NCBI GenBank assembly: GCA_029856435.1
Contig: JAHQXB010000076.1
Coordinates: forward strand, 1-17,524
Reading direction: 5' to 3'
Length of the DNA: 17,524 bases
DNA from: Candidatus Jordarchaeia archaeon
Lineage (GTDB): Archaea > Asgardarchaeota > Jordiarchaeia > Jordiarchaeales > Jordiarchaeaceae
In this document: positions 2,281 through 3,024 of the stretch, piece by piece
How the letters are laid out: the number at the start of each line of letters is the position of its first letter
Position numbering within the stretch: the stretch's first letter is position 1
Made by a program: the position numbers and the translations under genes
The notes under the pieces: generated by a model
The model's input: only the letters and a program-made list of their open reading frames with translations
Told to the model about the DNA's origin: nothing
Databases searched by the model: none

Positions 2281-2454
2281 CAAAAAAACACCCCAAAACT
2301 AGTTAAATGTTCCAAAAAACCTTTAAAACAGCTCAGAACCTCTCCCCCCTAAACGGTTCCAGGATTTATTTGCCACCCCAAACTAGAGTTTCCAAGAAGA
2401 GAGAGCCGTCATCCTCCACCAGAAAAACCAGAAAAGATAGGCAGGGAACAATAA

Positions 2455-2810
2455 GTGACCTCCTCCATTTGAAAATGGTGGCTTCCAGGTTTCGTTCACC
2501 ATTTCCCGCTTGTCGCCAAGACGGTGTTTTATGGATGCTTGCGAGGTTGCACCTTCACCTTCAAGGCTTTAACGGTGCAAGGCCAACGCCTCTCAGACTT
2601 ATCTCCCTCTTCCTTGTGCTTCAGGGCTTGGTCACCTAGTGACTGGTACTCCAGTCAAGCCCTATGCCAGACGTCAAGCCTGGCACTCGTTCGTTGCCGA
2701 ACGCATCGAAGCCCTTTTCGGGTATCCCAAGCTTCAACCGCACAGCGTGGCTTGGGTTTTCTCCGATTGTTCCCCCTAAGGGGAACATTTCGATATCCTA
2801 TTCGCTTTGC
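2455..2810 (-). ncRNA. Large structured RNA inside the mini-element (omegaRNA-like scaffold candidate)
   Basis: Stems: GUUCCCC-UUAG-GGGGAAC (2786-2769); CCCAAGC/GCUUGGG (2756-2726); junction-closing AUCGAA/UUCGAU (2794-2789 with 2710-2705); CGUUCG-GCAA-CGAACG (2703-2688); UGCCAG/CUGGCA (2685-2665); AGGGCUUG/CAAGCCCU (2663-2623) enclosing two hairpins; UUGCACC/GGUGCAA (2580-2547); CUUG-GCGA-CAAG (2520-2509). GNRA loops and G-U pairs occur only on the minus strand. Confidence 0.72.
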
Positions 2811-2876
2811 CAGATCAAAAAAACTTCCTTAATTCATTCACTGTTTGAAAACGGTGGTCTTCTTGAAGTGGTCTTT
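2455..2876 (-). mobile_element. Non-autonomous IS200/IS605-family mini-element with no tnpA/tnpB ORF
   Basis: Minus strand left end: TTTAT | 19 nt ending in AAGA | CCACCGTT-TTCA-AACAGTGA (hairpin 2857-2838). Right end: GAAG | CCACCATT-TTCA-AATGGAGG (hairpin 2481-2462) | AGG-TCAC ending at 2455. The two related imperfect hairpins are in direct orientation with a compensatory G-C/A-T swap. The guide/cleavage pairs AAGA/TTAT and GAAG/TCAC follow the IS608 pairing rule (AAAG/TTAC, GAAT/TCAA). Confidence 0.8.
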
Positions 2877-3024
2877 ATAAAAATCGAGCGTCAATGAGGA
2901 TTTCAAAATATTTTCAGTGCTCAAAGTCCCTCTTTTATAGAGTTGTTTCTCGTTTCTAGAGATTCAAAAAAGGGGGAAATTGGGGAAGGGAATTTTTTTA
3001 AAATTCTTATTTTTGCAGAAGAGT

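What the first reader, a model, noticed from the sequence alone, without database searches (positions are those of the whole stretch)
2435..2810. About 350-nt ornate RNA ending at the right end: candidate stand-alone guide RNA with an unusually large scaffold
Seen: at least nine stems, a four-way junction, a three-way junction, GCAA/GCGA/UUAG tetraloops, and a 10-bp stem (GGAAAUGGUG 2506-2497 with CACCAUUUUC 2480-2471) that competes with the DNA right-end hairpin. Established: TnpB omegaRNAs end at the right end and use about 16-20 nt of 3' flank as guide, and are typically shorter than this. Inference: an orphan omegaRNA with the guide UUAUUGUUCCCUGCCUAUCU acting in trans with a TnpB, a TnpB-derived regulator or an unknown effector, or else a new large ncRNA class captured by IS ends. 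I could not assign it to a known RNA family.
Basis: partly seen in the sequence, partly recalled or inferred. Interest (0 to 1): 0.88.

Follow-up and report, generated by a model that had tools for sequence, protein, structure and literature searches.

The report
Gene-less mini-transposon carrying TnpB guide RNA
The folded RNA is the body of a 422-base, gene-less copy of an IS200/IS605 "peel-and-paste" transposon in an Asgard-type archaeon; it keeps a TnpB-type guide-RNA scaffold plus an extra conserved 130-base domain of unknown role, an already described kind of element.

Summary
The minus strand of 2435-2810 folds far better than shuffles (z -4.5), and the named stems, GNRA loops and 10-bp alternative stem are present.

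It is not a free-standing gene. It is the interior of a 422-bp ORF-less IS200/IS605 derivative (PATE), window 2876->2455. The element sits precisely 3' of TTTAT with no target duplication, and a sister species has the empty site.

The genome holds 10 copies: six "type A" like this one, and four shorter "type B". The 3' part has TnpB omegaRNA hallmarks:
- a subterminal right-end hairpin;
- a pseudoknot between a hairpin loop and the last 6 nt, which co-varies across copies and across tnpB-carrying relatives;
- homology that stops exactly where the flank (guide) begins.

A 130-nt 5' block (H1-H4) is about 90% conserved. It occurs in both types and in gene-less elements from other metagenomes, but not in any tnpB-carrying relative I found.

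No cognate TnpB, no second target for the guide and no Rfam family were found. Published omegaRNA scaffolds span 79-466 nt, and PATEs encoding orphan omegaRNAs are described.

Verdict: new member of a known kind, with one unexplained conserved domain. Other agents of this scan reported other copies in this genome.

The parts
2877..2881 (-). TTTAT target / transposon-adjacent motif (TAM) just 5' of the left end
   Evidence: TTTAT or TTAT precedes 8 of 9 full own-genome copies (C68 differs). It also precedes the relatives in other genomes. The empty site in sister genome G004 reads ...TTTTTTAT|TTGTTG....
2827..2876 (-). Left end (LE) with subterminal imperfect hairpin CCACCGUUUUCAAACAGUGA (about 2857-2838). 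The last G of the consensus is A in this copy.
   Evidence: Conserved in all copies. The same LE precedes tnpB genes in G031 and G124.
2817..2823 (-). T7 run between the LE and the RNA body. Its length varies among copies (T0-T8). It is a possible archaeal terminator or slippage tract.
   Evidence: Alignment A7. Function not tested.
2769..2786 (-). H1 hairpin, first helix of the conserved 5' block
   Evidence: One compensatory C-G to A-U change (copy C83).
2705..2767 (-). H2 three-way junction: closing stem AUCGGAG/CUUCGAU, stem CAAGC/GCUUG with an inner CAC/GUG hairpin, and stem CCC/GGG
   Evidence: One compensatory U-A to C-G change (copy C79). More than 94% of cells are paired.
2688..2703 (-). 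H3 hairpin with a GNRA loop. The loop is GCAA here and GGAA or GGGA in metagenome relatives.
   Evidence: 100% of cells are paired. All changes are A to G, giving U.G wobbles.
2664..2686 (-). H4, a 9-bp hairpin that ends the conserved 5' block
   Evidence: Two compensatory pairs in the metagenome element L048.
2624..2662 (-). Pseudoknot hairpin GGGCUUG...CAAGCCC with an inserted hairpin GACUGG-AGUA-CCAGUC. Its loop GUGACC (2635-2630) pairs with the last 6 nt of the element.
   Evidence: Homologous hairpin in type B, in metagenome elements and in the tnpB-carrying IS of G031. Pseudoknot counts.
2483..2623 (-). Type-A-specific middle part, about 140 nt against 40-60 nt in type B. It holds GCC/GGC (UGAGA loop), UUGCACC/GGUGCAA, the GCGA hairpin 2524-2506, and GGAAAUGGUG (2506-2497), which can pair with 2480-2471.
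   Evidence: Found only in the six type A copies of this genome. Helices are 90-100% paired but mostly invariant, with no covariation.
2465..2481 (-). Right-end (RE) subterminal hairpin. It is shortened in this copy by a 3-nt deletion relative to the other five type A copies.
   Evidence: Alignment A7. Hairpin arms co-vary between CCACC-type and CCCC-type elements.
2455..2460 (-). Terminal GGUCAC (transposon-encoded motif). It is the 3' strand of the pseudoknot and the last bases of the element.
   Evidence: Homology among copies ends at 2455. Matched loop/terminus pairs:
- GUGACC/GGUCAC
- GUAACC/GGUUAC (copy C113)
- GUGAAC/GUUCAC (type B)
- GUCAAC/GUUGAC (G031)
- GUCAGC/GCUGAC (G036)
- GUAAAC/GUUUAC (G012)
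.
2435..2454 (-). 3' flank in the guide position (UUAUUGUUCCCUGCCUAUCU)
   Evidence: It differs in every copy. The only exact match in the genome is itself. It corresponds to the DNA right of TTTAT in the empty site of G004.

Best explanation

**Shown:**
- It sits exactly 3' of TTTAT with no target duplication.
- It has left- and right-end subterminal hairpins of the kind a Y1 TnpA uses.
- It occurs in about 10 copies.
- Its last roughly 210 nt have the architecture of a TnpB omegaRNA: a hairpin whose loop forms a pseudoknot with the last 6 nt, a right-end hairpin, and then the flank as guide.

**Inferred:**
- The element descends from the 3' end of a tnpB gene. The reading frame of the TnpB C-terminus is still open through the RNA body in several relatives.
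- When transcribed, the RNA is loaded in trans by a TnpB encoded elsewhere. It guides cleavage of the vacated site (TTTAT plus flank) after TnpA excision, so that recombination restores the copy.
- The 130-nt block H1-H4 directly upstream of the pseudoknot hairpin is most simply an extended 5' part of this scaffold. Its role could be binding, stability or 5' processing.
- This particular copy has a 3-nt deletion in the right-end hairpin and a G-to-A change in the left-end hairpin. It is probably no longer mobile.
For: **Repeat family and boundaries.**
- Copies and limits.
- Empty orthologous site in sister genome G004, confirming precise insertion after TTTAT without duplication.
- No ORF, no Pfam hit and no tnpB remnant in any frame.
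- Y1 TnpA and many tnpB genes exist in the genome. One is an intact 431-aa TnpB, 36% identical to the TnpB of the nearest full-length relative.

**Link to tnpB.**
- In G031 the same left end is followed by a 422-aa TnpB (PF07282, 5e-18).
- That element also has a right end with a homologous pseudoknot hairpin, hairpin and terminus.

**Structure counts.**
- 3' module of type B, a metagenome element and G031: 93% paired, 6 double-changed pairs (1/500 shuffles as good), covariation 0.152 against 0.079 (0/500).
- Whole 235-column RNA of seven type-B-like elements: 98.3% paired, 9 double-changed pairs (0/500).
- Pseudoknot in type A: 97% paired, with a G-C to A-U compensatory change.
- Loop and terminus co-vary across the TnpB clade.

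**Other.**
- The frame of the TnpB C-terminus is open in L048, L055 and L056.
- Literature: PATEs often encode omegaRNAs used in trans (PMC10055086). OmegaRNA hallmarks are a loop-TEM pseudoknot plus a right-end hairpin (PMC12558985). Scaffolds span 79-466 nt (PMC10278001).
Against: - No transcript data exist for this organism.
- No TnpB with a matching right end or omegaRNA was found in the 97.8%-complete but fragmented assembly, so the partner is unknown.
- The 5' block H1-H4 was not found in 31 tnpB loci of the phylum with a covariance model.
- Its in-frame translation did not match any TnpB among 1.84 billion protein representatives. Its membership in an omegaRNA is therefore by position only.
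- The type-A-specific 140 nt have no homologue outside this genome and no covariation.
- Among own-genome copies, about half of the stem changes break pairs, as expected for neutral decay.
- No Rfam family matches.
Confidence: 0.62

Rival explanations
1. Inert fossil. The copies are decaying relics of a past burst of a non-autonomous transposon. The folds are inherited from the ancestral tnpB 3' end and omegaRNA, and no RNA function remains in this genome.
For: - Within-genome variation shows no excess of pair-preserving changes (93.5% paired against 93.3% in shuffles).
- Type A copies carry stops in the ancestral frame.
- This copy has damaged end hairpins.
- One copy is interrupted by another MITE and one is 5'-truncated.
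- No cognate TnpB was found.
- The element is absent from the five other genomes of the genus.
Against: - The H1-H4 block and pseudoknot hairpin stay about 90% identical across elements from different organisms whose ends and middle parts have diverged or been exchanged.
- Compensatory changes are present.
- The pseudoknot is intact in this copy.
Confidence: 0.2
2. The 130-nt H1-H4 block is a separate functional RNA module, not part of a TnpB scaffold. It could be a protein-binding or processing domain that makes the guide RNA independent of a tnpB mRNA, or it could recruit another effector. It would spread by riding in PATEs.
For: - It is the best-conserved part of the family, more so than the omegaRNA middle part.
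- It is always fused at the same nucleotide to the pseudoknot hairpin.
- It occurs with two different classes of end hairpins (CCACC and CCCC types).
- It is absent from tnpB-carrying relatives.
- The H3 loop is GNRA in 11 of the 12 sequences of A3 (GCAG in C48) and GGGA in L056.
Against: - It never occurs without IS ends and a pseudoknot hairpin.
- The ancestral TnpB frame runs open through it, which fits an origin as ordinary tnpB 3' coding sequence overlapped by the omegaRNA.
- Only 3 of its 40 pairs show double changes.
- Parents may simply be unsampled.
Confidence: 0.12
3. Guide RNA for a nuclease-dead TnpB-derived regulator (TldR-like) or another domesticated effector, acting on a host promoter rather than on the transposon's own empty site.
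For: Orphan guide RNAs and many tnpB fragments coexist in the genome. Domesticated TnpBs are known (PMC10705468, listed).
Against: - Each copy's 16-nt guide matches only its own flank at 0 mismatches.
- Guides differ in every copy and are simply the insertion flank.
- Intact IS ends, the TAM and the empty site point to a mobile element.
Confidence: 0.03
4. Small protein gene. The open frame (..NVPQREQSEKPKPRCADEAWDTRKG..) that gene callers annotate on relatives encodes a 75-155-aa protein.
For: The frame is open in L048, L055 and L056, and ORFs were called on them.
Against: - There are stops and frameshifts in own-genome copies, including this one.
- There is no Pfam hit and no consistent start.
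- The only protein matches are ORFs on other copies of the element.
Confidence: 0.02

Closest known systems
PATEs (palindrome-associated transposable elements) of IS200/IS605 that encode omegaRNAs, e.g. in Geobacillus stearothermophilus (Meers et al. 2023, PMC10055086)
   Same: - ORF-less.
- Left- and right-end hairpins shared with tnpB/tnpA-carrying elements.
- Conserved TAM and multiple copies.
- An omegaRNA that must use a TnpB encoded elsewhere.
   Different: - Archaeal (Asgard-type) host.
- The RNA body is 2-3 times the size of the minimal core.
- It includes a 130-nt block not seen in the tnpB-carrying relatives found here.
- No cognate TnpB was identified.
TnpB omegaRNA of ISDra2 and other IS605/IS1341 elements (structures by Nakagawa 2023 and Sasnauskas 2023, as cited in PMC12558985; survey by Nety 2023, PMC10278001)
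   Same: - 3' end at the right-end boundary, with the guide read from the flank.
- Subterminal hairpin close to the scaffold end (11 nt, against the published 'within 10 nt').
- Pseudoknot between a hairpin loop and the terminal motif.
- Hairpin-rich scaffold within the published 79-466 nt range.
   Different: - Not overlapped by a tnpB ORF.
- No sequence similarity beyond the nearest archaeal relatives.
- No Rfam model matches.
Haloarchaeal sotRNAs / omegaRNAs of IS1341-type tnpB genes (Gomes-Filho 2015, cited in PMC12558985; Picinato 2025, PMC12558985)
   Same: An archaeal, structured RNA at the 3' end of IS200/IS605 elements, with a pseudoknot to the TEM and a right-end hairpin.
   Different: Those are processed from tnpB transcripts and are expressed and partly circularised. 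Here there is no tnpB and no expression data.
IStrons (group I intron fused to IS605/IS607; Zedaveinyte et al., bioRxiv 10.1101/2023.11.20.567912)
   Same: A large structured RNA fills the 5' part of an IS605-type element that ends in an omegaRNA. ORF-less PATE forms exist.
   Different: - No group I intron match, even at E up to 10.
- The element ends in C, not the G expected at a group I 3' splice site (my own recollection of group I intron rules, not checked here).
- The 5' block is only 130 nt.

Membership tests
IS200/IS605 non-autonomous element (PATE) | No protein-coding gene inside the element | tested here: met
   All stop-to-stop frames are 119 aa or shorter and have no Pfam hit. tblastn with the genome's TnpBs finds nothing.
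IS200/IS605 non-autonomous element (PATE) | Subterminal imperfect hairpins at both ends, no terminal inverted repeats needed | tested here: met
   The left-end hairpin is CCACCGUUUUCAAAC(A/G)GUGG and the right-end hairpin is CCACCAUUUUCAAAUGGUGG. Both are slightly damaged in this copy.
IS200/IS605 non-autonomous element (PATE) | Insertion 3' of a fixed 4-5-nt target, without target-site duplication | tested here: met
   TTTAT or TTAT lies 5' of the copies. The empty site in G004 equals the two window flanks joined.
IS200/IS605 non-autonomous element (PATE) | Ends shared with elements that carry tnpA and/or tnpB; a Y1 TnpA available in trans | tested here: inconclusive
   The same left and right ends occur with tnpB in G031, G124 and G126. 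The own genome has Y1 TnpA genes whose left-end hairpin is related but not identical. Mobilisation was not testable.
TnpB omegaRNA | Scaffold ends at the right-end boundary and the adjacent flank serves as guide | tested here: met
   Conservation stops at 2455, and flanks are unrelated between copies.
TnpB omegaRNA | Right-end subterminal hairpin within about 10 nt of the scaffold 3' end (Nety 2023) | tested here: inconclusive
   The hairpin ends 11 nt before the end in type A and 8 nt before it in type B. Its arms co-vary.
TnpB omegaRNA | Pseudoknot between an upstream hairpin loop and the terminal transposon-encoded motif | tested here: met
   The 6-bp pseudoknot is 97-98% paired, with compensatory variants in copy C113, type B, G031, G036 and G012.
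TnpB omegaRNA | Homology to the RNA region of a tnpB-carrying element | tested here: inconclusive
   Met for the pseudoknot hairpin, right-end hairpin and terminus. Not met for H1-H4 or for the type-A-specific 140 nt.
TnpB omegaRNA | A cognate TnpB that binds it | not testable with these tools
   tnpB genes are present, but none has a matching right end or omegaRNA.
TnpB omegaRNA | Transcribed and 5'-processed RNA | not testable with these tools
   No transcriptome is available. TTTAT plus AAA forms a TATA-like TTTATAAA at the left-end junction, read from sequence only.
Any curated Rfam family (including group I/II introns, ribozymes, IS605-associated motifs) | Covariance-model match | tested here: not met
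   There are no matches at gathering score. Only chance-level matches appear at E up to 10 on the window and on relative L048.

The most novel reading that the evidence does not exclude
The 130-nt H1-H4 block is a new, PATE-specific functional RNA domain, fused at a fixed position to a TnpB-type pseudoknot core. It would turn the element into a self-sufficient guide-RNA gene: its own 5' end formation or stability, or recruitment of an effector other than canonical TnpB. It would spread horizontally among Asgard-type archaea with interchangeable transposon ends and 3' scaffolds, and type A would be an expanded form.
Probability: 0.18. Interest if true: 0.65.

Novelty: new member of a known kind. 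Interest (0 to 1): 0.33.

Why it matters
**What is documented.**
- A well-bounded family of gene-less IS200/IS605 elements carrying TnpB-type guide RNAs in an Asgard-type archaeon and in related metagenomes.
- An empty-site control.
- Exchangeable end hairpins.
- A pseudoknot that co-varies across a TnpB clade.

This is useful for annotation: gene callers place spurious ORFs on these elements. It also helps in mining compact archaeal TnpB systems.

**The open question.** Why is a 130-nt structured block the most conserved part of the family, yet missing from the tnpB-carrying relatives?
- If it is needed for guide-RNA biogenesis without a tnpB mRNA, that would say how orphan guide RNAs stay functional.
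- If it is only the omegaRNA 5' half of an unsampled parent, the finding is ordinary.

Tried and rejected
- **Rfam.** Searches at gathering score and at E up to 10, on the window and on a relative, gave nothing. I therefore rejected known ribozymes, introns and sRNA families, including an IStron-like group I intron.
- **tnpB remnant inside the element.** tblastn with all own TnpB ORFs and Pfam on every frame gave nothing.
- **Cognate TnpB by right-end similarity.** A motif scan and lenient blastn of tnpB 3' flanks found no match.
- **Public collections for the type A 3' module.** A metagenome pattern scan gave 0 hits. BLAST over 400 genomes of the phylum found only left-end matches plus chance hits such as L036, which lies inside a coding region.
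- **Genome-contig scan with a 20-base 5'-block pattern.** It returned two chance hits, in a Bathyarchaeia and a Poribacteria MAG.
- **Translation of the RNA body against 1.84 billion proteins.** The only matches were ORFs called on other copies, plus an unrelated repeat protein.
- **Covariance model of the 5' block.** It found only the 10 known own-genome copies and nothing in 31 tnpB loci.
- **Second genomic targets of the guides.** None at 0 mismatches in any copy (near-matches seen only for the low-complexity C160 guide), so a regulator-type role is unlikely.
- **A mis-registered pseudoknot.** My first pairing (GGUGAC with GGUCAC) scored 47% paired. Corrected to GUGACC with GGUCAC.
- **K-turn, C/D-box and hammerhead readings of the junction bulge CGGAUGAA.** I considered these by eye and dropped them, because the opposite strand lacks the required partners and no model matches.

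Full report
**1. Observation**

The minus strand of window 2435-2810 folds to -141 kcal/mol. One hundred dinucleotide-preserving shuffles give -115.4 +/- 5.7 (z -4.54, none as good). The plus strand gives z -3.0. The region is a G+C island: 54% in a window otherwise about 35-55% G+C, 35-45% on either side.

They include the GCAA and GCGA tetraloops, the UUAG loop, a three-way junction, and the 10-bp pairing of 2506-2497 with 2480-2471. The four-way junction appears only in a fold that pairs the proposed guide with the scaffold, so I do not count it. Rfam gives no match at gathering score and only chance-level matches at E up to 10.

**2. What the stretch belongs to**

The sequence is repeated in the window's own genome (3.54 Mb, 181 contigs).
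- Six "type A" copies of about 415-426 bp are 88-93% identical. One more is interrupted by a foreign 115-bp insertion.
- Four shorter "type B" copies share the first 220 bp or so and then differ.

Homology starts at window 2876 and stops at 2455.
- Nearly every copy is preceded by TTTAT or TTAT.
- Each begins with AAAGACCACCUCAAGAAG plus a hairpin CCACCGUUUUCAAAC(A/G)GUGG.
- Type A ends with the hairpin CCACCAUUUUCAAAUGGUGG plus AGGAGGUCAC. Type B ends with CCACCCUU(C/U)UCAAAGGGUGG plus UAGUUCAC.

A sister species of the same genus (G004) has the orthologous intergenic region without the element. It reads ...CGATTTTTTAT|TTGTTGTAATCCCTGCC..., which is the two window flanks joined. The element therefore inserted precisely 3' of TTTAT without a target duplication. 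That is the signature of IS200/IS605 single-strand transposition.

No copy has a neighbouring tnpB or tnpA. No frame of the element has a Pfam hit, and none matches the genome's TnpB proteins. This is an ORF-less IS200/IS605 derivative, a PATE. The genome does encode Y1 TnpA, in two partial loci at contig ends with a related left-end hairpin. It also holds about 15 tnpB loci, most of them broken.

**3. Link to TnpB**

BLAST over 400 genomes of the phylum finds only the left end elsewhere. In G031 that left end is followed by a 422-aa TnpB (PF07282, 5e-18). The element ends ...CCACCUACUUCAAUAGGUGGUAGUUGAC. About 90 nt upstream lies a hairpin GGCUG-CUGUCAAC-CAGCC. Type B has the homologous hairpin GGCUG-UCGUGAAC-CAGCC and ends in GUUCAC. 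In each case the loop is complementary to the last six bases.

The same rule holds in type A:
- loop GUGACC at 2635-2630 with terminal GGUCAC at 2460-2455;
- copy C113 has GUAACC with GGUUAC.

It also holds in more distant TnpB elements of the phylum:
- GUCAGC with GCUGAC in G036;
- GUAAAC with GUUUAC in G012.

A pseudoknot between a hairpin loop and the terminal transposon-encoded motif, plus a right-end hairpin, are the features the literature gives as characteristic of TnpB omegaRNAs (PMC12558985; PMC10278001).

I counted pairs on an alignment of five type B 3' modules, one metagenome element and the G031 tnpB element. The four helices are 93% paired, with six double-changed pairs (1 of 500 shuffles as good) and a covariation score of 0.152 against 0.079 (0 of 500).

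**4. The 5' block**

Between the left end and the pseudoknot hairpin lie four structural units:
- H1, 2786-2769;
- a three-way junction, 2767-2705;
- H3 with a GNRA loop, 2703-2688;
- H4, 2686-2664.

This block is shared by types A and B. A pattern from it retrieved three metagenome contigs. A translated search retrieved three more records: one from a further metagenome, one from an NCBI MAG, and a third (L057) that duplicates the L049 element already found.

All of these are ORF-less elements from DNA of about 53-54% G+C (contigs L048-L050), so from other organisms. In them the block plus the pseudoknot hairpin is about 90% identical to the window's. The other parts differ:
- the linker to the left end;
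- the middle of the 3' module;
- the end hairpins themselves, which are CCCC...GGGG instead of CCACC...GGUGG in L056, L049 and L057.

On the seven type-B-like RNAs, an 11-helix model including the pseudoknot is 98.3% paired. It has nine double-changed pairs (0 of 500 shuffles as good) and covariation of 0.168 against 0.122 (0 of 500). Three of the nine lie in the 5' block, in H2 and H4. Within the own genome alone there is no significant covariation. About half of the stem changes there break pairs, which is what neutral decay of inserted copies would give.

I could not find the block in any tnpB-carrying element.
- A covariance model of it hits only the ten known copies in the own genome.
- It hits nothing in 31 tnpB loci of the phylum.
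- Its translation matches no TnpB among 1.84 billion protein representatives.

Yet one frame is open through the whole RNA body in L048, L055 and L056, while the other two frames have stops. It is the frame that in G031 encodes the TnpB C-terminus (...KPPTSIGGS*). The length differences in the variable part are multiples of three (alignment).

The simplest reading is that the body descends from the 3' coding end of a tnpB gene, which is where omegaRNAs normally lie. On that reading the full-length parents are unsampled or diverged. The alternative, that H1-H4 is a separate captured module, is not excluded.

**5. The type-A-specific part**

The window's copy belongs to type A. Its 3' module is about 210 nt, against about 105 nt in type B. 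It has an extra hairpin inside the pseudoknot hairpin and about 100 more bases before the right-end hairpin.

This part exists only in the six copies of this genome. Its helices are 90-100% paired but nearly invariant, so there is no covariation evidence for or against them. Invariance says nothing about whether it or the right-end hairpin forms in RNA.

**6. Function**

*Shown:* a mobile-element architecture, a TnpB-type RNA core, and a flank-derived guide position.

*Inferred:* the RNA works as PATE omegaRNAs are proposed to (PMC10055086). It would be loaded in trans by a TnpB and direct cleavage of the vacated TTTAT-plus-flank site, so that recombination restores the element.

Supporting details:
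- Each copy's 16-nt guide matches only its own flank in the genome. This fits homing and argues against a regulator with a host target.
- The genome has one intact TnpB (contig C43, 431 aa), 36% identical to the G031 protein. Its own right end differs, so cognate pairing is unknown.

This copy has a 3-nt deletion in the right-end hairpin and a G-to-A change in the left-end hairpin. It is probably immobile, although its pseudoknot is intact.

Transcription is untested. A T-run of variable length (0-8) follows the left-end hairpin.

**7. Comparison and novelty**

PATEs carrying orphan omegaRNAs are described. Processed TnpB omegaRNAs range from 79 to 466 nt and are hairpin-rich. A scaffold of about 330 nt is therefore large but within the known range.

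New here:
- the host group. Earlier notes of this scan call the genome Asgard (Freyarchaeia/Jordarchaeia). I checked only that it encodes a true actin, 456 bits;
- the family itself, which matches no Rfam model;
- the conserved, so far PATE-only, 5' block.

I file it as a new member of a known kind. Other copies of this element in the same genome were already noted by this scan. One follow-up reached the same classification. I arrived at mine from my own searches and took one lead from those notes, the loop-terminus complementarity in type B.

Noticed in passing
L006 about 1765-1885 (G000 contig C168): The type A copy on C168 is interrupted by a foreign insert of about 115 bp. The insert has terminal inverted repeats (GGTGATGTAGATT ... 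AATCTACACC) and a 9-bp direct repeat TGGTCTGTG on both sides. This looks like a second, unrelated MITE family. A similar AATCTACATCACC end is seen near the C68 copy.
   Followed up: no
L053 6656-6785 (IMGVR_UViG_3300029202_000001): A viral contig carries a mini-element of about 125 bp with the same TTTAT target, left-end hairpin and GGGUGGUAGUUCAC right end, but almost no interior. Viruses may move this transposon family between hosts.
   Followed up: partly
L032 1253-1549 (minus strand) and L043 360-653 (genome G018): A third gene-less form of about 290 bp has the same left and right ends but an unrelated interior lacking the H1-H4 block. The family swaps its RNA cargo.
   Followed up: partly
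L012 1484-1500 (genome G004, same genus): This is the empty orthologous site of the window's insertion. None of the five other genomes of the genus has any copy of the element, so the family entered this species after the genus diverged.
   Followed up: yes
L048 6457-6888; L055 36-503; L056 1592-1963; L057 279-674: Public gene calls place 123-155-aa ORFs across these gene-less elements. They follow the leftover TnpB C-terminal frame and are probably annotation artefacts.
   Followed up: partly
L055 about 350-470 and L056 about 1410-1535: Two metagenome copies lie directly next to tRNA genes. In L056 the TTTAT target is 20 nt after the tRNA 3' end.
   Followed up: no
window 2817-2823 and the equivalent place in other copies (alignment A7 columns 55-62): A T-run between the left-end hairpin and the RNA body varies from 0 to 8 T among copies. 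It could be a slippage-prone tract or a tunable archaeal terminator in front of the RNA.
   Followed up: no
G000 contigs C23, C41, C48, C92, C145, C162, C177 (loci L014-L027): Most tnpB loci of this genome are broken by stops or lie at contig ends. Only C43 holds a clearly intact 431-aa gene. Several distinct right-end and omegaRNA types coexist.
   Followed up: partly
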